A stretch of 64,000 bases of DNA from contig OX597827.1 in the NCBI GenBank assembly GCA_951406725.2, positions 29,760,001-29,824,000 on the forward strand, in the 5' to 3' direction. This DNA comes from Octopus vulgaris. Its lineage: Eukaryota. Shown in pieces: positions 6,171-61,265 of this stretch (positions within the stretch are counted from its first letter, which is position 1; every line of letters starts with the position of its first letter). Under the pieces are notes generated by a model. The model had not been told where the DNA came from, did no database searches, and worked only from the letters and a program-made list of their open reading frames with translations. Both the position numbers and the translations under genes were made by a program.

Positions 6171-9100
6171 TTTTTTTTTTCTTCTTTCAAATTTTCTTCC
6201 ATTTCTTGCCGAGTGTCTTCCCGACTCCTAGGGCAAAGAAACTCATAGTGTATATTGGTAGGACATTAAACCAAACTCAGTAGTTCGTTCATTTTTTTTT
6301 TTTTTTTTTTTTTTTAAGTTAAATTAAAATACATGAGCAGCAACAGTTCTCACATCGACAATGCTCTTCTCAATACGTGTGATGTACCAGTTAAGACAAT
6401 CTTTTGCACTTCTTGCAGGGATGGTAAGCCAGGGATCATTCTCATATAATTTTCGGTTCCCTTCTTGATCATTCCTAGTGCTCCTACGATCACTGGTATT
6501 GTAACCGCCTTGAGATGCCACATTTTCTCAATTTCAATGAGTAGGTCTTTATATTTTCTGAGCTTGTCAAACTCTTTCGCTGAGATATTATGATCACAGG
6601 GGATGCTCATGTCGATCAATAAGCAAACTTTATTGTTTTGGTCTTTCACAACAATATCTGGTTTATTGGCCTTGATGGTTCGGTCTGTATGTACTGGAAA
6701 GTCCCACAGAATGGTTACATTTTCTCCTTCAGTTACAGCCTCAGGGTGGTGATTATACCACTTGTCGGCAGTTTTGATATTGTAATGCCGACTTAGCCAG
6801 TGGAGATATTGGCCAACTCTGTCATGTCTTAATTTATACTCCACTGATGCTAAAACTTTACATCCAGAGATTAGGTGGTCCACTGTTTCAATCATGTCGT
6901 TGCAGAATCGGCATTTTGGGTCTGCTCCATTTTTCATCACATTGGCCTGGTAGTTCCGGGTTAATAGGCTTTGGTCTTGAGCAGCCAGGATGAAACCTTC
7001 GCTCTCTGCTTTTAGCCCTGAGCTCCGCAGCCACTGATGGGTTTGCTTCTGGTCAACATCAGCTTGTTTGCTGCGGGTCACATATTTGCCGTGCAGAGGT
7101 TTCTCCTCCCACCTATCAGCCAATTGCTCGTGCGCCTTTTTCATTGCCATCATTTTCACCTTCTTTGCAACAATAGTTGCCGTACTTCCCTCGGGTTGTT
7201 CAGTTTGGGTATCCTGCACGAGATCAATAGCAAATTTTTTGCTTTCCTTGATGATAGAATGAAGCTTCTTTCGTCTCTCGTGATTTTCCACGAGCTTTAG
7301 CATCCAGTCATTCGATATTTCGAGATATTTGGCCAGTCCAATTGTGGTTGTTTTGTAAGCTAGTTCAAATTGGATCAGGCCTCGACCTCCTTGGGCTCTG
7401 GGAAGGTAAAGGCGATCTACGTCTGCCTTTGGGTGGTGCATCCTATTACAACTCAGCAGCTTGCGTATTTTTCTATCTATATTCTTTACTTCACTCATAT
7501 TCCAGTTCAACACATTGTAGCTATAAGTAACAACTGGAACTGCTAAGGAATTTATAGCTAACACCTTGTTACGTGCATTTAGTTCAGATTTCAGGACTGC
7601 ACGAACTCTCCTATAACATTCCTTCCTGATTTTCTCTTTCATGCTTGCATGCTGAATACCAGAGCCTTCATTTATCCCTAAATATTTGTATGTCTGTTCT
7701 TGCTCAAGCTCTCTTATGACTGTGTCAACATCTAACACGACTGAATTTGTGGTCTTCACTTTCCCTTTCTGGAAAGTGGCCTTGGCACACTTCTCAAGTC
7801 CAAACTCCATCCCGATGTCATCGCTGAATGCTTTCACGGTGCGCAATAGGCCTTCAAGTTCATTATTGTCTTTACCATAAAGTTTTAAGTCATCCATATA
7901 AAATAGATGGCTTATTTTTTTATTGGCAATTTTATACCCATACCCTGTTCTGTTTAATTCACTTGTAAGGGGTATTAGGGCTATGCAGAATATTAAAGGT
8001 GAAAGTGAGTCACCTTGAAAAATTCCACAGTTGATGTTTATATTTTCTGAGGCAAGTACTCCATTAGAGTGGTATAATTGGAGATTCGTATTCCACAACG
8101 ACATGTGCTTCAGGAAGTTTGAAATCACAGGGGAAATTTTAAAGATGTCCAGCGATCTCAAGATCCATGGATGCGGTATACTGTCGAAGGCCTTTTTATA
8201 GTCAATCCATGCGGTGCTGAGATTTCTGCGCTTGTTGTGACAGTTCTCAAGGATCATACGATTGATTAGCAGTTGATCTTTGCATCCGTAAGAGCCTCGG
8301 CGGCACCCTTTTTGTTCAATGGGGAAAATATCGTTCTTCTCCATGAATGCATATGTTTTCTCCGCCAGGATAGATGTTAGGATTTTATACGTGGTGGATA
8401 GACAGGTTATAGGCCGATAGTTTTTTGGAAGGTTGGTTTCGTTATTCTTTGGGAGTAGGTAAGTAATGCCACTTGCTAACCATTCAGGTGTTTTCTTTGG
8501 GTCTCTCAAAATTCCATTGAGCAGCTGAACTAGCTTACCGTGTGCGCACGGGAGCGATGCGAGCCAGAAATTCGGCACCCTATCTTTACCGGGGGATTTC
8601 CAATTATGGGCCTTCGTGAGTGCCTTTCTTAGGTCTGCTATTGTGATGTCTTCCCATGCTTGTTGTTGTAAATTTTGGTAGGATCCTTCAGTTTGTATAA
8701 TCCAGTCTGCATTTATGTTGTACGTCTTCTTGTCACTCCAAATCCTTTCCCAAAAGTTTTGAACTTCTTCCATGGGAGGGGGTCTTTAACGGTTACTTTC
8801 TCCTTCCCTATTTCTCTGTAGAATTTTTTGGCATTGGATGTGAACAGCTTATTTTGCTTGTAAAACTTGTTTCTCTTCTCAAATCTTCATATTCTTTGGG
8901 CTTTTGCTTGGACTTTTTGTTTCAGCGTTTCTTTTATTGATATCAGTTCTTCTCTTGGTGAGGATCCAAATTTTCTCTTCATCTTTCTTCCTGTTCTGGA
9001 TCTTACATCATTTCCACATATTAGTTCATTTAATATTGATATTTCCCCTCTCATAAATTCAATCTCTTTTTCAATTTTACTTCTCCAGGTTTGATTTCTT

Positions 9101-10090
9101 CCCAGGTTTTGTTTTCTTTGTTTTTTCGGGGGAATACAGCTGGTTTCAATTGCCCTAGCAGAAGCGTAAATAATTTCATTTAACTCAGTAAAATCAGGTT
9201 TTAATTCTCGTATTATTTCATTTGTTACATAGTTGCCAATTTGGATTTGTTTTTTATTTTGGTTTGTATTTGAGAGTTTATGAAGCGGTTCTCTATCATT
9301 CATACTTGTATGTCTTACAACTTCAAGCGTATTCAGGATTTTCTGCCTCATTTCTGCCATAGACTCTCTGTGTTCTTCAGCAAATGCGAGATCTTCAGTT
9401 ACTGTTGTTTTTTCGTTTTCCTGGCTATCTTTAACAGGTACAATAGAATTTCTTGTATCTTCAGGCCTTTGCGTACTTTGGTCAGATGGCAGTCTTTCAA
9501 TTAAGCCTCGTGGCGGGCTATACTGTTCATCTGATTCTTCATTTCCTTTGTGTCTTATATTTATGTCATTTTCCGTTGCGTGCTTGATCGCACTTATTTC
9601 ACTGTCTGTGAGTCTGTTATTTCTAAAGATATCCCTCCTCACATTTGCTAATTTGTTCTCGTCCAAATAGGGCCTACTGTCTTGATTCCGTGTTCTCCAT
9701 ATACTGTAAGAGTTTGCGGTGTGTCTCTCTTGAGATGGCCTACCTAATGCATAGTAATAAGCGTATATTACTTCTTTATACTCTTCTCGGGTCCATTTGT
9801 TCCGCTTACATTTTTCTTTCTGTGGTGGTTGTGGTGGTGAACTTGGAGGGCTCGAGTTGGGGGATTTCCCGTTCAAGTGACCGTCCATGTCCGTATTCGG
9901 AGAAGAGTTTGTGCCAGTTGATGACTTTTCGATCCCAGGCTGGCTCTTCCCTGGGGGACGCGCTTCCAGATTAACCATAGGACAAGCGATTTGGTATACT
10001 GATTTAGTTTTCCTTTTAGTTTCCAAAAACATTTTGGTGCTACGATAATGTTATCATTTTTTAGCTTTGATTGGCTCGTGGGGAGACGGC
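6171..10090 (-). mobile_element. Near full-length R4/Dong-clade non-LTR retrotransposon
   Basis: Single long disrupted ORF with RT and a C-terminal CCHC knuckle plus restriction-like endonuclease; the 3' end abuts (TAA)n at 6133-6169. The 5' boundary is uncertain and may extend to about 10440. Confidence 0.9.
6350..10032 (-). pseudogene. R4/Dong polyprotein (RT plus RLE endonuclease) with one nonsense codon and one frameshift
   Basis: Motifs NYRPITCL, WIDYKKAFDSI, QGDSLSP, YMDD, CRFC..ETVDHLISGC, RHD, KPDIVV..LIDMSIP..K..KY. ORFs 8887-10032 and 6350-8773 join via a TGA at 8887-8889 and a 1-nt loss in the C-run near 8775-8783. Confidence 0.9.
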
Positions 10091-16906: not shown

Positions 16907-18512
16907 TTGCGGCCAAAATGTTCAGAACGGCATTGTTTTCGTCAGAAAATTAAATATATGTTTTTATCAAAATTGTTTTATATTCTATAATTTTCACAGA
17001 CAATAAATACAATTGGTGTAATTGGTGTAATTTGAGAGGATAATACAAAAGTTATGGATGATTTAGTGATCTACTTCAAAACCCATGGCGGCCAAAATGA
17101 TCAGAACGGTTGAAAATAATCAAAATAATCAAAAATGACTGAGAATACTGGAATTATTTAATATTTAGTGTGAAGCCCTTTAGCTTCAATCACACTCTGA
17201 CATCTTCGACTGCATGAGGAAATTAAATTTTCAATTTCTTGCTGGGTGATCTTATTCCATTCTTCCTGAAGGGCATTCCATAATTGTTCAGTTGTTTTAG
17301 GATTTCTGGCTTTCGAAAGTTCTCCTAGAATATTCCATACATTTTCAATAGGATTGAGATATGGGCTTTGAGCAGGCCAATCCATAACAATAACCTTTTC
17401 AGCCTTGAAGAAGTTCATGACCACCTTAGCCTTGTGACATGGGGCATTGTCCTGCATGAATATGGGTGGTCGCTTAGTTGAATTTCTCAGCACAGGCAAG
17501 ACATGATCTTTTACAAGTTGTTTATAAACTCCTGCATTTACCTTTCCATGTAATCGCACCAAAGGGCCCACACCATCTCCAGATATCATCCCCCAAACCA
17601 TGACACTTCCTCCACCGAATTTAACACTAGTCTTAAGGCATTTAGGCGACAATTTTTCACCTACTTTTCTACGAACGTACCTTTTCCCATCTGAGCCAAA
17701 TAACATAAACTAAGATTCATCACTGAAATGCACCGTTTGCCATTTTCTTGAGACCACAACACATGTTCGGTTGCAAAGGTAAGACGACACTTTTTATTCT
17801 TGGAGCTGATCAGTGGCTTCACTGCATTTGCTCTTGCTTGTAGGTCATGTTCAACTAAACGACGAGACACAGTTTTTCGAGATAAAGTTTTCTTCAATAC
17901 AATTCTCATTTTTCGAGAAACAGCAGCAGCAGTTTTAAATCTGTCCTTTTTAACCAACTTTACCATAGCACGATCTTCTCTCTTGGTCGTTTTTCTTGGC
18001 TTACCTGTAAACTTTCTTGCTTCACACGAACCACAATCATCGTAGACCTTAAGAATACCGTGTACAACACTTTTTGACTTGTTAACAATCTTTGCAATAG
18101 ATCCAATACTTAAATTATCCTTCCTTCGAAGCTTAATAATCTGCTGACGAATTGGTAACGGAGTAAGTGACATTATATTAACAAAGTACACTGCAAATAT
18201 TCTTACTAATGTTTAGTAAACGAACCGTCACGTAAACAAATTCAAAACATTAGAGTTCGCTGGTTAAATATACTAAAACATGCAGTAAAAGCCACCGTTC
18301 TGATCATTTTGGCCGCCATGGGTTTTGCAGTAAATCACTAAATCATCCATGCCTTTTGTATTATCCTCTCAAATTACACCAAAATCTCAGGCAATAACAA
18401 ATAATATCGTATTTATTGTCTGTGAAAATTATAGAATATAAAACAACTTTGATAAAAAATTTTATCTACTTTTCTGACGAAAACAATGCCGTTCTGAACA
18501 TTTTGGCCGCCA

Positions 18513-19964: not shown

Positions 19965-22887
19965 ATGTTGGCATGGGGAAGACGCCGACACCTCGCCAAA
20001 ACTACAGGGGCCTTGAGGAGAAAAACGTCCCTGAGGAAAGATAACAAACGTCTCCAAGGAAAAAATTTACAAAAGAAGTGCGCTCTTCAGAGGTTATGCA
20101 CAAGGCAGCAGCTGAGCAAGAGTCTTTTTTGTACATGGAGCAAAAGATTGTGCAGCAGCTGACCTGGCTACAGCAAGCAAGCACAAACAAGGAACTTTGC
20201 CCACACCGCATGGCCACGACAGTCAACAGACACGGGATGACCTCCCCTAACGCCTGCACAGTCGTCACGCCAATAGTTTTACTAAATATTGGGGGACTGT
20301 TGCATCATAATAAAAGCAAAATTTCTTTCCTGAGAGACCTTGCTGCATGCAATCAAGCCCTTTGCATAGCACTCGTGGAAACTCACTTCAGCCCTGATAT
20401 TGAGGATGCAGAAGTACACGTACCAAAATATGCCATACTGCGAACAGACAGAAGGGAAAGGACCCATGGTAGAGTTGCTGTATGCATTCGTGACGACCTC
20501 ACACCCCATGTCTTACTGCCATACTCAAATTTGGTACGTGACACTCTAATTGTATAAGATAACATAATATAGTCATAATATAGCCCTATTCATGGAGCAA
20601 GCTGTACTCAGACCAACTAAGGCGAACAACATTCTGCATCTCTGCTTCACGAACAATATGGATATCATTCATGATGCGAAAGTGACGCCGATACTAGTCT
20701 CGGATCACAACATAATAGAGCTGTCTATGTTTGGGCCGAAAGCAACCAGAGACATACAGCCTAAAGGAAGCACCCGAAATCTCTCCAATCTGAACTTCCG
20801 CAAAGCAGATTGGAAATCGATCCAAAAAGAGATCCGCAGAGAGGACTGGCCGACATGTCTCACCAAACCAGTCATTGACATGAAACTAGAATGTTTCATG
20901 TCTTCTGAGCAAGCCATATGCCAGAAATATGTCCCAGAGCACAAGGCCAAAACAAATAGGAAAAAGATTCCAAGAGAGAGGAAGATCCTCATGAGACGAC
21001 GGACGAAGATTGCAAATCGACTCAACCAACATCCCAAAAGTAGTGAAAGGTCCCACCTAAAAACAACACTGATGGAGATCGAAAAAAGGCTGCAACAATC
21101 CTATGTGAGGGAGAGAGCAAAGAAACCTGGGTTATAAAAAACATTAAATCAAACCCAAAAGCCTTCTTTCATTACACGAAAGAAACAGTCTCAATACACT
21201 GCAAAATAGGACCCCTCCTCCAAAACGATGGCTCACTCACAGACAGTCCAACTCGGATCAGTGAGGTACTGAATGACCAGTTCAAAACTGTCTTCACCAT
21301 TCCGTTGGAACACATACAAGTGAACGAACCAGTGGACTTCTTTGCCGCCTCACCTATATACAGCCAGGCAGTTACGATGGAATACATTGACATTAGCGAA
21401 GAAGATGTACTACTAGCCATAGATAAATTGGACACAAACTCAACTGCTGGTCCTGATAGTCTCCCAACAATCCTCCTCAAATCGTGTAAGCATGCTCTGA
21501 CAAAACCCCTCCAGATTCTCTTCCAGAGCTTTCTTGCAAATGACAAGCTGCCAAGCAAGTTGAAAGAGGAAATAATACACCCAATCCATAAAGGTGGAAG
21601 CAGAGCAGATGCCAAAAACTATAGCAAAGTCATGGAACGGATAGTCAGAGGGAGACTAATCGCATTCCTTGAAGAAAATAATTTGCTGAGTGATACCCAG
21701 CATGGCTTTCGACCAGGTAGGAGCTGGCTGACCCAGCTCTTACAACATTATGACTGGGTGTTGAGGCAGTTACTCAACAACCCAAATGTGGATGTAATAT
21801 ACCTTGATTTTGCAAAAGCTTTTGACAAGGTGGATCATGGTATGATATGCTACAAACTGCGTGATCTCGGCATAGCTGGAAAACTTGGAGAGTGGTTACA
21901 TGACTTTCTGAAAGATAGAAGTCAGGCAGTAGTGGCTAATGGAGCCACCTCTATGAAAACACAAATAGGGAGCGGTGTTCCACGGGGCATTGTCTTGGGA
22001 TCAGTGCTTTTTATAATGTCCCTCTCAGATATGCACTCAAGTGCCCGGATAGCCACCCTTGCAAGCTACGCAGACGATACGAAAGTCTCGCAGAAAATAC
22101 AGAACTTCAGCGATGTTGCACATCTGCAGCAGGAGTTGGACTCAATTTACAGATGGGCTGAGGATAACAATATGCAGTTTAATGCTGAAAGATTCCAATC
22201 CCTGCGCTACCAGCTTCCAAAACTGAATATGAAACTTACAGGGTACACCGGTCCACAGGGAATTTCAATCCCAGAGTCTAAATCAGTGAGGGACCTGGGT
22301 ATCGACATGAGTGATGATAGATCTTTCCAAGTGCACATTACCAGGATGGCGACAAAGTGCAGACGACCGGCTGGATGGATCCTGAGAACATTCAGAACCA
22401 GAGATAAGGAAACCATGATGATCCTCTGGCGGACATTCGTCCCCTGCCGCCTGGATTACTGCTCACAGCTATAGTCACCCAACAGTGTGAAATTAACAGC
22501 GGACCTTGAAGCAATCCAGAGAAGATTCACAAAGAAGATCGTCTCTTTGCAACTGCTCAGCTACTAGGAAAGGCTGAAACAGCTAAAACTCTACACCCTG
22601 GAGAGAAGGCGCGAGAGGTATGCAGAAATATACATCTGGAAGATCCTGGAAGGAATTGTGCCAAATTTTGGCATTGAAAGCTACATCAATGCCAGAACGG
22701 GACAACACTGCATATTGCCAAAGATCCCAGCAACGCCATCGCGCTTCAGGACCAGTTACTGCAGTAGCCTGCGTTTCAGGGACTCACAGCTTTTCAATAT
22801 TCTCCCAAAGAGATTTCTTTAACACACTTAAACATTGCCCCAGCATGGCCGCGGCCTTCGGGCTAAAACATTTTTTAGGATTTAAGG

Positions 22888-27765: not shown

Positions 27766-27863
27766 AATGGTGAAATACGTTCCAATGTGACAAAGAGCTG
27801 ATTTTAGAACATATTCACGGTTGAAAGACTTTCTAGAGATTCAGTGAATTCCAAGAAACCAGT

Positions 27864-29120
27864 ATGACGTCAGAAAATGAATGCGATCTCTTATTCAATA
27901 ATGCCACTGGTAATATTGCCAACATTCTTGAACTGAACAGGTTAAAAGTTCGGGATTATATCCCTGTCTTGCTTTATATTTCAATTGGAATTGTAATAGG
28001 CACGACCGGCAATGCTGCTGTTATGTATGTCTACAGTCGCAAGATGGAACGAACCGGGACAAACAGATTTGTGGTCATGCTAGGAGCGTGTGACTTCTTA
28101 AGTTGTGTATTTTCAATGCCTATGGAGCTACTCAGAGTTTCTCAACCGCATATTTTTAGTGGGCAAGGAGCCTGTAAACTCTCTTTGTTGATTGCTTCAG
28201 CGATCGCGATAGATTCTGGACTTATAATATTCGCTATTTCTATAGACCGTTACAGACGAATGTGTCGGCCGTTTGACAAACAGCTCACCCAGAGAATGGC
28301 TGAAATTGTGTCCGTGGTACTTGTAGTTATTTCATTTATGCTAGGATGGCCTTCATGGTTAATTTATGGTACCAGAAGAACACCGACGCAAAACAGCAAA
28401 GTCAGCGGTGGGTGTGAATGTGGTATTGCTCAATCCATGTTTGATACGATATATCCACGATTATTTTACTACGCTCTCCTTATTCTTTCGGTGGCTTTAT
28501 TTTCTATAATTTTCTTGCTATATTTTCTCATTGCTATCAAGGTATGGAGACACAAAAATAAACGATTGGCAGCCACTAAAAATGTCTCAAATGCCATAGT
28601 ATCTACTACTTCACCTGTTAAACCTTCAAGTAATTCATTGCCTGGCAAGAAAATATTACCTTATCTTCCGACACAGGAGAGCGAAATTTCAGTCGATTCG
28701 CGCAATGCGTTACCAAGTCAAAGAATACCAAAGCATGTACGGATAATTCCACATGGAAATAGATCTCCTTCAAAAGGAACACTTCTTCGTGTAACAAGAA
28801 CTTCTTCCATTATGGCTTTAATAGCTGTAACTTGGGTTCTTAGCTATATGCCTCATATTATTTTGGTCATGCTGGAAATTCACGTAAAAGGATTTCGCGA
28901 AACATTGACTCCATTACAGGACATATTTTTCCAGTTAGCCATACGTTCTTATCTCCTCAACAACGCAGTTAACCCTATTATATATGGTGTATTCAATATG
29001 CGATTCCGGAGAGAAGTAAGACGAATAATTAGCTATATCCTACCACCTTGTGTTCGTCCAACCATTACTCCCACACAACCTTCTAGCCAGATGTGCAGTC
29101 AGCCGTCCATGGATGATTAG
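27864..29120 (+). CDS. Rhodopsin-family (class A) GPCR, peptide-receptor-like orphan, 418 aa, CDS in one exon
   Basis: Seven hydrophobic segments; GN in TM1, LGACD in TM2, DRY after TM3, Cys at the top of TM3 and in ECL2, SYMP in TM6, NPIIY in TM7 followed by an FRREV helix 8; N-glycosylation sequon NAT near the N-terminus. Confidence 0.95.
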   Translation: MTSENECDLLFNNATGNIANILELNRLKVRDYIPVLLYISIGIVIGTTGNAAVMYVYSRKMERTGTNRFVVMLGACDFLSCVFSMPMELLRVSQPHIFSGQGACKLSLLIASAIAIDSGLIIFAISIDRYRRMCRPFDKQLTQRMAEIVSVVLVVISFMLGWPSWLIYGTRRTPTQNSKVSGGCECGIAQSMFDTIYPRLFYYALLILSVALFSIIFLLYFLIAIKVWRHKNKRLAATKNVSNAIVSTTSPVKPSSNSLPGKKILPYLPTQESEISVDSRNALPSQRIPKHVRIIPHGNRSPSKGTLLRVTRTSSIMALIAVTWVLSYMPHIILVMLEIHVKGFRETLTPLQDIFFQLAIRSYLLNNAVNPIIYGVFNMRFRREVRRIISYILPPCVRPTITPTQPSSQMCSQPSMDD

Positions 29121-30135: not shown

Positions 30136-30281
30136 AGTAAATATGTGAAATATTATTACTGTTAAAAACAGTAATAATGAGGTGGCTAGCAAGACTTCTA
30201 CCTAAACAGGTATAATAAGAAATATTTTAATAAAAGAAAGGTAAAGATACCGCTTACTAAAAATAAAAGCGAAAGCTTCAG

Positions 30282-30688
30282 AAAACCACCAATTCTACGA
30301 TAAATGCACACACGAGCAATATAATGAATATTTTTTAAAATAGGCCTACCTTCAGGATGGAATTTGAAAGTAGTTTACTACATACCCCACTATCAATTGA
30401 TTTCATGCTGTGCATGAGAAAACATGCTTCGCATCGTCAGTTGGAGACAGTACATAACATCTATTTCTAAAATATTCATTACGTCAACTCGTGTGCGTTT
30501 CTAACTTTAAACGTCCCGCTCCGTTTAAAGAGAAAATTATCGTAAACAATAAAAAAGTAAATATGAAATCAATTGACATCGGGGTATGTAGTAACCTACT
30601 TTTAAACTCCATCCTGAAGGTAGGCCTATTTTTAAAAATATTCATTACATTGCTCGTGTGTGTATTTATCGTAGAATTGGTGGGTTTT
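30282..30688. repeat. Inverted repeat with arms of about 125 bp
   Basis: 30282-30406 is the reverse complement of 30563-30688, with a spacer of about 155 bp. Confidence 0.85.
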
Positions 30689-30829
30689 TTTATATACGGA
30701 GATGTATTTGCATAGCGAGTGACTTGATCTGAGATCGTGTGCTTGAACGAAAACTGCAGAGTAGAAGGTGTTTATAAGCCATTTAAGAAACACAAAAACC
30801 GTTAGATTCACTTCAACATTTAAATTTAA

Positions 30830-30880
30830 TTTGTCAGAATATTTTCGTCGCTTTGAGACCGCGACCTGTTCACTGACAAA
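30830..30880 (-). ncRNA. Type I hammerhead variant with G3-C8 core (GUGAACA), fully formed
   Basis: UUUGUCA GUGAACA G GUCGC GGUCUCAAA GCGAC GAAA AUAU UC UGACAAA: perfect 7-bp stem I, 5-bp stem II, palindromic AAUAUU stem III. Confidence 0.8.
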
Positions 30881-30897
30881 ACTTCGTGCTGCATCTC

Positions 30898-37117: not shown

Positions 37118-39169
37118 GAATCATTCGCTCAAACCTTGCTGTATCCACAGATTCCATCGTACTACACTTGGAATAGAAAAAATGGGCCCCACGGAAAGCA
37201 GGTCAAAATGTTCATGGATAATCTGGCATTAAGTTTCACACTTGCCTTGGGCGAGTATACACAGTGCATCCCACTCAACAAGAGTGCTTCTACCTTCGTC
37301 TACTACTGTATGAGGTCAGAGGGCCAACGTCTTTCCAGGCCCTAAAAACCGTTCATGGACATGTCTGCACAACATACAGAGAAGCCTGCTATCGACAAGG
37401 TCTGTTAGAAGATGGTGCACAATGGGATGCAACTTTAGGAGAGACTGCTTTATCACAATTATCTAAAACTCTCAGGGCACTATTTTCAGTATTACTACAG
37501 GCATGCGAACTGTGTGATCCGACCACTCTATGGCTCAAATATAGAGTCAACCTGGCTGAAGACTTTCAGCGTCAAGCTCAACTGCTCTGTCCTGACATGG
37601 AGGGTATCAGCAATGAAATCTATAACAAAACACTCATTGAAATTGAAGACAGAATTGCTAAACAGGGTGGAAATGAATTGTCGACGTATGGCCTGCCACA
37701 AGCATTCAGTTCAGGGTCAAATAGCCTTCCCACTGCTGTCATTCGTGAAAAAACCTACGACACTCAAGCGCTTTCAAAGTATATTGTTGAAAATAAGCCT
37801 AAATTAACTTCCGGACCAGCTGCAGGCCTACAGAACTATTCTTAACAGTGTACGCCAACGCGGTGGACGAATCTTCTTCCTCGATGCTCCCGGAGGAGCA
37901 GGAAAAACATTTATTACAAAGCTTCTCCTTGCAGAAGTTAGGCAGCATCAGGACATTGCAGTAACTGTAGCCTCCTCTGGCATTGCAGCTATTTTGTTAC
38001 CCGGTGGCAGGACAGCACACTCACTTTTTAAACTCCCTCTCAATTTAGCAGCATCCGAAATGCCTTCATGCAACATCAACAAAAGCTCAGATCAGGGACA
38101 AGTACTTAAAATGTGTCATCTAATTGTCTGGGATGAGTACACTATGGCTCAGAAGGGAGCTTTGGAAGCATTAGATAGAGGCCTGAAAGACATCCGAGAT
38201 TGTCAGGCTCCAATGGGAGGTATAACGCTTCTGTTGTCAGGTGATTTCAGGCAAACTCTTCCTGTCATTCCGAAAGGCACTAGAGCAGATGAAGTCCAAG
38301 CATGCCTAAAGTCCTCTACCCTGTGGCATCATGTTACAATCCTCAGTCTCACCACTAACATGAGAGCTCAGCTACACGGCGACAAAACGTCTACAAAGTT
38401 TGCACAGGACATTTTGACACTTGGTGAAGGCAAGATGCCTCTCGATGCTGCAGGACAAATGGAAGTGTGGTCATTTTCCTCTGTTGTTAATTATGTAGAT
38501 AACCTCAAAAACAAAGTCTTTCCCAACTTCACACAAAACTACCAAAATCACAATTGGCTATGTGACAGAGCAATATCAGCTCCAAAAAACGTCGCTGTTA
38601 ACAAAATTAATCAACACCTAATGCATTCTCTTCCCGGCACTATACACACTTGCAAGTCTGTTGATACAATTCCAGATATAAATGAAGTTGTGAACTATCC
38701 TCCTGAATTTCTCAATTCACTGGAGCCTCCTGGACTGCCTCCACACATATTAGCACTTAAATTTGGAACTCCTTTAATGCTACTCCGCAATCTGGAACCA
38801 CCAAGACTTTGCAATGGAACACGACTGGTGATAAAGAAAATGATGTCACACGTTATCGAGGCGATCATTCTTTCTGGATGTGGAAAAGATGATGACGTCT
38901 TTATTCCAAGAATTCCTCTTACTCCATCAGGAGCAGAAATTCCATTTACATTCAGAAGACTGCAATTCCCCCTTCGTGTCAGCTTTGTCATGTCCATTAA
39001 CAAATCTCAGGGTCAAACCCTCTCTGTAGCTGGTCTTCTCTTGGAAGAGCCCTGCTTCTCGCATAGGCAACTGTATGTTGGCTGCTCAAGAGTAGGAACC
39101 AAAAGAAACCTTCTTGTATATGCTCCACAAGGAAAAACAAGGAACATTGTTTACAACGAGGTGTTATAA
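37118..39169 (+). pseudogene. Helitron RepHel C-terminal part (PIF1-family helicase), 5'-truncated and frameshifted
   Basis: HPTQQECFYLRLLL..RGPTSF..LKTV; Walker A DAPGGAGKT; GGRTAHS; IVWDE; GDFRQTLPV; LCNGTRL; RLQFPLR..SINKSQGQT; LYVGCSRV; frameshift near 37810. Confidence 0.92.
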
Positions 39170-46991: not shown

Positions 46992-47538
46992 TTTAATGTA
47001 TATAGTTATTTACTTCCATTTGATTATTTATCAGTGTATTTTAATATGTTTTTAGTTTTGTTTATATTGTTACCAGTTTATGGGGATCTTCTTCTGTCAT
47101 ATGCTGTGGTGTGTGCTGGTGTTCCATTCCAGTCACCAATTCAGGCTAGGTTTATCTTCTATTATGGGTGTAGCATCCGCAATTTGTCTGATTGCTGCGT
47201 CTGTTCTATGTGTGGACAAGATTTTAACTTCTATGTTGTTGACTGAGCCCCCGTGTTCCTGCTCGGCGTGTTGGTACAGAACCGATGAGCTCTTTTCTTC
47301 CTTAAGTTCACATGAACAAAATCAAAATAAACAAAAACAAAATCAAATTACACGAACGTATATAAACAGGAGATACAAATATTACAGGCACTTCCCCCAC
47401 ACACCTACTAACGAAACATAAACACACATAGAGGTATACGCATGCGCAAATGGAGTCGCATACAATAGGAATATAAATTACAAAATGGCTGACCGTTAGT
47501 AAGGAGAGACACACAAATAAGAAAAAAAGAAAGCAAAA

Positions 47539-58553: not shown

Positions 58554-60816
58554 CAGTAGTTTTATTTTTATTTTTATAGCGTGCTTTCACTTCACTACCG
58601 AGCGCAGCTCTGTGTGCCTTGGGTATGTGCTGTGATTTGTTGTGATGCTCTGATGGTTATTATATGGAAAGTGTTCTGCGTAGGATGTGTGCAGTGCCTA
58701 GTAGTGCAATTTTCTGTATGTTATATGTGTTTGTAAGTCCTGGTGTTTTTGTTATGTATTTGTCTGAATATTTTTTTATCATGCCTAATGCACCTACTAT
58801 GATAGGAATTGTTTCTGTTTTCAGATTCCACATTCTAGTTACCTCTATTTCCAGGTCTTTGTATTTTGAGAGTTTCTCCATTTCTTTTAGAGACACGTTG
58901 TCATCTGCCGGTACTGATACATCAATTAGAAAGCATTTTTTTCTTCATGGTCTCTGACAACTATATCTGGTCTGTTGGCCTTAATTTCTCTATCTGTGTG
59001 TATCGGCATATCCCAGAGTATGGTTGCTTTCTCGTTTTCTGTGACCTTTTCTGGTGTGTGCCTATACCATCTTTTTTCTGTTGTTATTCCATAATGTTGG
59101 CATAGCTTCCAATGTATGTAAGTTCCAACTCTGTCATGTCTGTGAATATATTCCTTCTTAGCCAGGACTGGGCAGCTAGAGATAATATGATTTATTGTTT
59201 CTTGTCCATCTCCACATATTCTGCAGTTACTTGTAATATTTCTTTTCATTACATGTTTTTGGTAATTTCTGGTGGGGAGGCTTTGGTCTTGTGCTGCAAT
59301 TAAAAATCCCTCTGTCTCTGCTTTGAGTCCTGAGCTTCTCAACCATTGCTGGGATTTTTCTTTGTCTATTTCTTTTGCGTTTAGTTTAGTCCAGTATTTA
59401 CCATGAAGGGGCTTTTCTTGCCATCGTTTTAGCATGGTTCGTTGCTGTTCTATTTTTAGTTTGGATTTCATTTTTTTTATAGCTTTTGTTGTTTCTTCAT
59501 CTTCTTCTTCTTCATGTTTATTAGGTGGTATGATTTCTTGTTTGTATTTGTCAGCTTCCTTAAATACTGAGAACAGTTTTTTGTTTTGCTCGTGTTTTGC
59601 CGCTATCTGGATCAGTTTTCCTTCCTTCTGAAGTAGATATTTTTGCAGTCCTATGGTGGTTATTTTATAGTAGTTTTCCAGCTGTATAAGGCCTCTACCA
59701 CCTTCTATACGTTGTATATATAGTCTTTCTATGTCAGATTTTGGGTGATGCATCCTAGATCCTGTCATTATTTTTCTTGTTTTCTTGTCTATTTTGGTCA
59801 GTTCATTTCGTGTCCAGTTAAGGATATTGTAGCTGTAACTTATAACTGGGACAGCTAAAGTGTTGATACCTATTATCTTGTTTTTAGCATTGAGCTCTGT
59901 GTTTAGTATTGATCTAACTCGTCTATAATATTCTTTTTTTATTTTCTCTTTCATTTGTGTGTGTTGTGTCTTATCTAGTTCATGGATTCCTAAGTATTTG
60001 TAAGTTTGGCTTTGGTCTAATTCTTTTATTTCATTTGCTTCATCTAGTGTGATGTTGTTACTCTTAACTAGTTTTCCTCTTTTCATGGTTACTTTGGCGC
60101 ATTTTTCTAATCCACATTTCATATCTATTTCTTTGGTAAATCCATGAACTGTCTTTAATAGTGTTTCCAGCTGTTTGTCATTTGCAGCGTATAGTTTTAG
60201 GTCATCCATATATAAAAGGTGGCTGATCGTTTTGCCGTAACATTTATATCCGCATCCAGTTCTATTTAGCATATCAGATAGAGGTGACAGTGCCAAGCAG
60301 AAAAGGAGTGGAGAGAGCGTGTCTCCCTGGAATATTCCTCTTCTAATGGGTATGTCTTTGGTTTTCATGAGTCCCTCTTTTGTTTGGAGGTGTAGGACTG
60401 TTTGCCATTTATTCATAGAGTGCTCTATGAATTTTATGATTGTTGGTGCTACTTTGTTAATGGCTAGTGTTTCGAGGATCCATGTGTGGGGGATGCTATC
60501 AAACGCCTTTTTGTAGTCAATCCAGGCCATACTGAGGCCTTTCTTCTTTCTGTGGCTGTCTTCAGTTATGGCTTTATTAATCATTAGTTGATCTTTACAG
60601 CCATATGAGCCTTTGCGGCATCCTTTCTGCTCTTCTGGGAACAGTTTGTTTTCGTCCAGGTGCTTGTTCAGCCTTTGTGATATCACTGCAGTAAATGCCT
60701 TGAACATAGTAGGGAGGCAGGTTATTGGTCTGTAGTTTTCTGGTTTTTCTGTTTCATTTGATTTGGGAATTAAGATGGTTTTCCCCTTCGTGAGCCATTC
60801 AGGCATTGTCTCTGTC
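58554..60816 (-). mobile_element. 5'-truncated R4/Dong retrotransposon (RT plus RLE) between (TAA)n tracts
   Basis: PEWL..NYRPITCL..WIDYKKAFDSIPH..QGDTLSP..YMDD..CRICG..RHD..RPDIVV; one frameshift in the A-run near 58935; stop at 58660, then 3' UTR. Confidence 0.92.
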
Positions 60817-60887
<71 letters not shown>

Positions 60888-60888
60888 T

Positions 60889-61265
<377 letters not shown>

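What the first reader, a model, noticed from the sequence alone, without database searches (positions are those of the whole stretch)
30830..30880. Fully formed G3-C8 hammerhead variant 1.7 kb downstream of the GPCR
Seen: perfect 7-bp stem I, GUGAACA core, 5-bp stem II, AAUAUU palindrome and UUC triplet on the minus strand. It is the best candidate here for an active non-canonical ribozyme. Inference: it would cut antisense transcripts running toward the GPCR.
Basis: partly seen in the sequence, partly recalled or inferred. Interest (0 to 1): 0.7.

Follow-up and report, generated by a model that had tools for sequence, protein, structure and literature searches.

The report
Retrotransposon hammerhead with swapped core pair
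This hammerhead-shaped RNA motif is one of more than 7,000 copies spread by a Penelope-type jumping gene whose family has two paired core letters swapped; this copy carries a further rare change that likely jams it, so it is probably not a regulator of the nearby receptor gene, and cutting has not been shown for any copy.

Summary
The motif is real, exactly as described, 1,710 nt behind a GPCR ORF on the opposite strand. It is the hammerhead of a 203-nt solo pLTR fragment (window 30695-30897, minus) of a Penelope-like retrotransposon (PLE); the host is likely an octopus. Its 5' half occurs 7,079 times in the genome. Full-length parents (two pLTRs, RT + GIY-YIG ORF) carry the same G3-C8 core. 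Related PLE families keep C3-G8 with compensatory stem changes, so the swap is an inherited natural variant, not decay. But the family has U17 (6,657 exact copies); the praised UUC (C17) occurs in 21. C17 can pair with G3 (predicted 0.985), a trap reported to lower activity, so this copy is likely worse than its siblings. It has no dimer partner in the window. Only 2 of 100 copies start at the cut site, 33 start about 60 nt upstream, and RNA reads from a related organism show no drop there. The GPCR-regulation idea is unsupported. The family-level G3-C8/U17 variant is the worthwhile part: I found it in no paper searched. The scan noted single G3-C8 motifs before on other DNA.

The parts
30830..30880 (-). 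Minimal type-I hammerhead motif: G3-C8 core pair, extra G at 9.1, palindromic stem III, C17 in this copy (family U17)
30837..30837 (-). N17 = C, a sporadic change from the family's U; complementary to G3 (30873)
30695..30897 (-). Solo 5'-end (pLTR) fragment of an EN+ Penelope-like retrotransposon, between TA-rich microsatellite flanks
30896..30897 (-). Shared sharp 5' end of short copies (30896) plus one untemplated G (30897); inferred transcription start with copied cap
30695..30782 (-). First ~29 codons of the PLE ORF (ATG at 30782); the rest of the ORF is absent
   Evidence: matches the N-terminus read from the pLTR of L179
30695..30755 (-). About 60-nt 'tail' between the family's two alternative 3' ends (inferred RT start sites); this copy ends at the distal one
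   Evidence: 3' ends peak at 14-19 and 75-78 nt behind the anchor
27837..29120 (+). Neighbouring stop-to-stop ORF of a rhodopsin-family GPCR (context only)

Best explanation
The motif is the hammerhead that a Penelope-like retrotransposon family carries in its terminal repeat, left here in a short solo copy that is likely inert. Shown: the 203-nt stretch matches the pLTRs of full-length RT + GIY-YIG elements; the family has G3-C8 and U17; this copy has C17. Inferred for the family: C3-G8 was swapped to G3-C8 in its lineage, which keeps the Watson-Crick pair the active site needs, and U17 keeps the competing G3:N17 pair weak. Cleavage would then be slow and conditional on a second hammerhead (through the palindrome) or on the element's protein, as for other PLE hammerheads. 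Inferred for this copy: reverse transcriptase started inside the ORF start and copied an uncut, probably capped RNA to its 5' end, inserting at a TA repeat. A later U-to-C change at position 17 would lock G3 into stem I. The position near the GPCR is likely incidental.
For: Copy number: 7,079 exact hits of the 5' half with N at 3, 7, 8; 95 of the first 100 listed are G3-C8 (hand count); the C3-G8 version with the same stems has 0 hits; 10,166 hits of a downstream anchor. Parent: L179 has two pLTRs 4,261 nt apart (201 of 205 identical) around the ORF; L181 has a 998-aa stop-free stretch with GIY-YIG (E 1.6e-5); both carry G3-C8/U17. Nearest named relative: an Octopus vulgaris 'reverse transcriptase domain' protein, 54%. 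Two 3' ends and head-to-head truncated partners as in PLEs (PMC8557442, PMC11167929 passages). Across 9 hand-picked motifs of this and related families, 6 of 15 pairs change on both sides, including 3-8. Between subfamilies, 0 of 12 core columns but 5 of 9 loop-II columns have minor letters of at least 12% (89 copies). U17 6,657 vs C17 21. Closing G3:N17 gains 3.5 kcal/mol with C and 1.3 with U; pair probability 0.985 vs 0.675. A G3-C8 variant is reported as less active with C17 than with G17 (PMC3884650, 'data not shown'). C3G/G8C partly restores cleavage in a lizard PLE hammerhead that needs protein and is dispensable for insertion in vitro (PMC11167929). 5' ends: 2 of 100 copies within 2 nt of the cut, 33 at the upstream start.
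Against: No cleavage assay exists for either form; nearest-neighbour energies ignore tertiary contacts and protein help, and C17 is normally the best cut-site base. The 9-row covariation set was hand-picked and amounts to about three lineages, so the shuffle result (0 of 500) overstates it; the number of covarying pairs was not above shuffles (79 of 500). 7 of 147 copies have G8 (G3/A3 with G8, unpaired), so the family could spread with a broken core, which weakens the case that the pair is under strong selection. Uncut templates do not prove that no RNA is cut; cut RNA may simply not be copied. The RNA reads come from many copies in an organism that may not be the window's species, and about 16% of them were not U at position 17 (the other letters were not itemised).
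Confidence: 0.8

Rival explanations
1. The whole family's hammerhead is catalytically dead; the G3-C8 shape is a relic, or is kept for another reason such as an overlapping internal promoter or a protein-binding fold.
For: No peak of copy 5' ends at the cut; flat RNA depth and no start/end pile-up (a weak test); the G3:U17 wobble is still predicted at 0.675 and the palindrome duplex is only -0.2 kcal/mol; the 9.1 letter is G while the published PLE consensus has H; G8 copies exist; cleavage is not needed for insertion in the lizard PLE.
Against: Two transversions that restore exactly the 3-8 pair, plus compensatory changes in stems I, II and III against related families; core unchanged across subfamilies while loop II varies; related families with a canonical core also have G at 9.1 (1,483 hits).
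Confidence: 0.35
2. One reading: this copy is an active ribozyme that cuts minus-strand RNA heading toward the GPCR, possibly RNA started by the pLTR's own promoter at 30896, and so limits antisense read-through.
For: Orientation fits: the element points at the GPCR 3' end. Core, stems and an NUH triplet are intact. PLE pLTRs are reported to hold promoters (PMC6765202) and the sharp 5' end suggests a start inside this fragment.
Against: G3:C17 trap; no partner copy in 64 kb; monomeric metazoan PLE hammerheads showed no detectable cleavage (PMC4209133); further private substitutions at 30763, 30760, 30744 and 30707; a copy within 2 kb of a given stop codon has probability 0.7%, so many genes have one by chance; the only locus-like transcript hint is + strand.
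Confidence: 0.04
3. A chance look-alike, or a decayed canonical hammerhead in which two mutations happened to complement each other in this one copy.
For: No Rfam hammerhead hit.
Against: The same core is in thousands of copies and in ORF-intact elements; it aligns column by column with canonical hammerheads of related PLEs.
Confidence: 0.01

Closest known systems
Minimal type-I hammerheads in pLTRs of metazoan Penelope-like elements (Cervera and de la Pena 2014, PMC4209133)
   Same: Location in the pLTR; extra nucleotide between 9 and 10.1; G10.1-C11.1; palindromic stem III; U17 is common in their table; mostly solo copies, some in opposite-strand pairs.
   Different: Core is G3-C8; the only 3-8 covariant seen in that paper was U3-A8. 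The extra nucleotide is G (their consensus H). No octopus row in the searchable supplement file.
Engineered C3G/G8C hammerheads (PAc PLE of Anolis, PMC11167929; G3-C8 remark in PMC3884650)
   Same: Same swapped pair; partial activity in a PLE context with protein.
   Different: Those are laboratory mutants; here the swap is natural, dominant in a family of thousands and paired with U17.
Natural U3-A8 core variants (Perreault et al. 2011, PMC3088659)
   Same: Natural covariation of the 3-8 pair.
   Different: That keeps pyrimidine-3/purine-8; this reverses it.
EN+ PLEs of Neptune/Nematis type (as described in PMC8557442)
   Same: RT then C-terminal GIY-YIG, CX2-5CxxC linker (CQSNCAVC in L181), pLTRs, tail, inverted truncated partners, TA-repeat targets.
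   Different: Tail about 60 nt rather than 30-40; clade not tested by a tree.
Non-LTR retrozymes (bioRxiv 10.64898/2026.07.22.740005)
   Same: Short non-coding PLE-derived units with a type-I hammerhead.
   Different: No tandem array here; the fragment is simply the 5' end of a coding PLE.

Membership tests
PLE minimal type-I hammerhead | Literal CUGANGA core | tested here: not met
   G3 and C8; 0 genome hits for the C3-G8 form with these stems
PLE minimal type-I hammerhead | Watson-Crick pair possible between positions 3 and 8 | tested here: met
   G-C; covaries with C-G in related families
PLE minimal type-I hammerhead | U4 G5 A6 A9, GAAA, A15.1-U16.1, G10.1-C11.1, H17 | tested here: met
PLE minimal type-I hammerhead | Extra nucleotide between 9 and 10.1 (consensus H) | tested here: inconclusive
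   Present but G (consensus); related canonical families also have G
PLE minimal type-I hammerhead | Short palindromic stem III allowing dimers | tested here: met
   6-nt palindrome, duplex only -0.2 kcal/mol
PLE minimal type-I hammerhead | Lies in the pLTR of a PLE | tested here: met
PLE minimal type-I hammerhead | N17 not Watson-Crick complementary to N3 | tested here: not met
   This copy G3:C17, P 0.985; family G3:U17 wobble, P 0.675
PLE minimal type-I hammerhead | Site-specific self-cleavage | not testable with these tools
   Indirect tests negative or weak
Rfam hammerhead families | Covariance-model match | tested here: not met
EN+ Penelope-like element (parent) | Single ORF with RT and C-terminal GIY-YIG | tested here: met
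   GIY-YIG above Pfam cut-off; no Pfam RT model hit, RT read from the YVDD motif (motif recalled) and the relative's name
EN+ Penelope-like element (parent) | Direct pLTRs, optional tail, inverted 5'-truncated partners | tested here: met
Neptune/Nematis clade | CX2-5CxxC linker before the endonuclease | tested here: met
Neptune/Nematis clade | Placement in the RT tree | not tested
   No named reference sequences fetched
Non-LTR retrozyme | Tandem non-coding monomers, each with a hammerhead | tested here: not met
   Single copy in the window; dispersed copies with a coding parent

The most novel reading that the evidence does not exclude
A recently active PLE family uses a naturally reversed G3-C8 hammerhead that really cleaves (as a dimer or with the element's protein), made workable by U17 and reached from C3-G8 through an unpaired G3-G8 stage whose copies survive in the genome. 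It would be a natural, high-copy example of the engineered double mutant, with its evolutionary path recorded in thousands of copies.
Probability: 0.45. Interest if true: 0.55.

Novelty: new variant of a known kind. Interest (0 to 1): 0.38.

Why it matters
Hammerhead searches usually demand C3-G8 (sometimes U3-A8), so a dominant G3-C8 family means descriptors miss thousands of motifs per genome. Why PLEs keep hammerheads is unsettled. A lineage that swapped the pair while keeping it suggests that the catalytic fold is selected, even though most inserted copies came from uncut RNA. The natural series C3-G8/C17, C3-G8/U17, G3-G8/U17, G3-C8/U17 and G3-C8/C17 is a ready test set. This particular copy matters little.

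Tried and rejected
Rfam scans gave no hammerhead hit. Canonical core with the same stems: 0 hits. L138/L139, 3.4 kb apart, were first taken for two pLTRs but are a local duplication. L145/L147 are decayed, internally deleted copies. The upstream YAG preceded by a branch-point-like word (351 copies at up to 1 mismatch) was first read as a splice acceptor giving spliced short copies. No shared exon lies upstream of the extra G, so a capped start is preferred; splicing is not excluded. No PDB relative of the ORF. The look-up of sequencing runs: no RNA holder listed on record; not used as evidence. cannot resolve this locus, because reads come from many copies and fragmented cDNA libraries hide cut ends. 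No clade tree was built. Literature: 9 searches answered; 'hammerhead' + 'G3-C8' returned only PMC3884650, an engineered variant. Lunse et al. 2017 on ~PLE hammerhead variants, Martick and Scott 2006, Przybilski and Hammann 2007, Nelson and Uhlenbeck 2008 and a review requested by recalled id were not held. Natural G3-C8 may be reported there or in supplement file 1 of PMC4209133, which could not be searched. No measured rates for UUU versus UUC triplets were found.

Full report
Observation. It also has one extra G between A9 and stem II. The GPCR ORF (27837-29120, +; 7tm_1 E 3.3e-31) ends 1,710 nt away. The fold is more stable than shuffles (z -3.4). Rfam finds no hammerhead.

It is a repeat. 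The genome (2.8 Gb, 227 contigs) gave 2,172 first-look candidates for the 121-nt stretch. The 5' half with N at 3, 7 and 8 has 7,079 exact hits; of the first 100 listed, 95 are G3-C8 by hand count. The C3-G8 form with the same stems has none. A downstream anchor has 10,166 hits, one per 275 kb. Homology runs from 30897 to 30695, between TA-rich flanks. The host is likely an octopus, inferred from the genome size and the nearest named protein.

The parent element. Following shared upstream sequence led to decayed and then to near-intact elements. L179 has two direct repeats 4,261 nt apart, 201 of 205 identical, around the ORF. L181 has a 998-residue stop-free stretch with a C-terminal GIY-YIG above the Pfam cut-off, a YVDD motif and a CX3CxxC linker; Pfam's RT model did not hit. 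The repeat continues straight into the ORF, whose ATG corresponds to window 30782. Copies end at two places about 60 nt apart, and many have a head-to-head truncated partner. These are the PLE tail and inversion signatures (PMC8557442, passages; PMC11167929, passages and part of the main section). The window holds a solo 5'-end fragment of an EN+ PLE of Neptune/Nematis type by its linker; the clade was not tested by a tree.

The swap is inherited. The ORF-intact copies carry G3-C8 and U17. Related PLE families in the same genome (1,483 hits; 38-54% protein identity in C-terminal fragments of 4 of the 30 loci fetched) have the same layout with C3-G8. In 9 hand-picked motifs, 6 of 15 pairs change on both sides, among them 3-8, one pair of stem II and 15.2-16.2. 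The covariation score is 0.335 (0 of 500 shuffles), but the count of covarying pairs is not above shuffles (79 of 500) and the rows represent only about three lineages. I left out a further related family whose stem I needs a bulge. Among 89 distinct copies of the finding's family, 0 of 12 core columns, 3 of 26 stem columns, 5 of 9 loop-II columns and 17 of 121 other columns have minor letters of at least 12%. Against strong selection: 7 of 147 copies have G8, and PLE insertion did not need cleavage in vitro.

This copy is the odd one. All 29 other closest loci show U17; genome-wide the exact 3' half has U17 in 6,657 and C17 in 21 places, the latter scattered over subfamilies. With G at position 3, C17 can extend stem I. 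Closing G3:N17 gains 3.5 kcal/mol with C and 1.3 with U; pair probabilities are 0.985 and 0.675, and 0 in the two C3-G8 relatives tested. The mirror trap C3:G17 is the proposed cause of an at least 300-fold loss in minimal hammerheads, and a G3-C8 variant was said to be more active with G17 than with C17 (PMC3884650, passages, 'data not shown'). The copy differs from the commonest letter at 14 of 198 columns, most of them subfamily sites; 30837, 30763, 30760, 30744 and 30707 are nearly private. Stem III is two A-U pairs; the palindrome duplex is -0.2 kcal/mol. Single PLE minimal hammerheads showed no cleavage and dimers little (PMC4209133, parts 1-2 of 4). No second family copy lies in the window.

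Is the family's RNA cut? In 100 copies from chromosome C1 picked by the anchor behind the cut (89 distinct after collapsing duplicates), 2 begin within 2 nt of the cut, 13 behind it, 46 between cut and upstream end, 33 at the upstream end and 6 further up. By hand, an even spread would put about 3 at the cut, so there is no peak. The upstream end often carries an untemplated G, read here as a copied cap; splicing at the YAG there is the rival. Most copies therefore came from uncut RNA, as reported for the lizard PLE. Raw RNA reads of organism F (about 6% of two runs; 1,330 and 984 laid, mostly 90-95% alike, so from other copies) cover the element in both directions, evenly across 30837, with no pile-up of ends. 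This is a weak test and says nothing about this locus.

The GPCR idea. A copy within 2 kb of a given stop codon has probability 0.7%, so with tens of thousands of genes (number recalled) more than a hundred such neighbours are expected. The only locus-like transcript hint is a contig with 16 A>G changes in the inverted repeat at 30282-30406, which points to a + strand transcript if the run is RNA. On that strand the hammerhead is antisense and cannot cut. What survives is a small chance that the pLTR starts minus-strand RNA at 30896 (pLTR promoters: PMC6765202, section 11 part 2).

Mechanism. Shown: identity, copy numbers, family state, parent structure, covariation, position of copy ends. Inferred: slow conditional cleavage of the family's G3-C8/U17 form (about even odds; the engineered C3G/G8C form is partly active, PMC11167929 and PMC8495972 passages); origin of this copy from an uncut capped RNA; inactivation by C17; no role at the GPCR.

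Novelty. It works like a PLE minimal hammerhead but fails the literal core consensus and the Rfam models, so it is filed as a variant. Natural U3-A8 is in print (PMC3088659, passages; PMC4209133). 'Hammerhead' with 'G3-C8' returned one paper, on an engineered variant. No octopus hammerhead report appeared. The main catalogue of PLE variants (Lunse et al. 2017) and supplement file 1 of PMC4209133 could not be read, so prior report is not excluded. The retrozyme preprint was read in part 1 of 5. Earlier scan notes describe single unverified G3-C8 motifs in protist PLEs and phages; none covers this genome or sequence.

Verdict. Observation confirmed, interpretation partly supported; new variant of a known kind; interest 0.38, resting on the family rather than on this copy.

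Noticed in passing
window 30282-30406 and 30563-30687: 125-nt inverted repeat (92%) formed by another repeat family. A contig of run X6 (RNA is only a guess) spanning 30269-30556 differs at 19 places, 16 of them A>G on + and all within the arm; A>G also at 30622 and 30649. This looks like A-to-I hyper-editing of a + strand (GPCR-sense) transcript; other genomic copies reaching across this stretch are about 80-90% alike. Needs DNA of the same individual.
   Followed up: partly
window ~30385-30448, minus: A second hammerhead-like motif with canonical C3-G8 core and palindromic stem III inside that neighbouring repeat; stems I and II imperfect.
   Followed up: partly
window 46705 (-), 47536 (+), 23154 (-): Canonical C3-G8 hammerheads of a related PLE family; 46705/47536 form an inverted pair, with a GIY-YIG remnant at 47121-47300, 50% identical to the finding's family.
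   Followed up: yes
window 4267 (-), 4739 (+), 39570 (-): Further canonical minimal hammerheads, the first two as an inverted pair.
   Followed up: no
family 5' end, window 30896-30897: Short copies end sharply here. An untemplated G precedes the end in 1,039 copies; 1,485 have another letter, mostly the templated C or T, and A in 10 of the first 100 listed. Suggests RT copies the cap of an uncut RNA.
   Followed up: partly
L018, L031, L095, L114, L146, L148, L206: G at position 8 in 7 of 147 copies against T 2 and A 2; L146 and L148 look related. Possible G3-G8 intermediate.
   Followed up: partly
L272, L288: Related-family motifs with C3-G8 and U17, suggesting that U17 came before the swap (two copies only).
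   Followed up: partly
window 6350-10050 (-), 58926-61109 (-), 21047-22474 (+), 37222-39169 (+), 17158-18212 (-): Long ORFs that read like non-LTR RTs, a PIF1-type helicase and a Tc1/mariner transposase (labels from recall, no family search).
   Followed up: no
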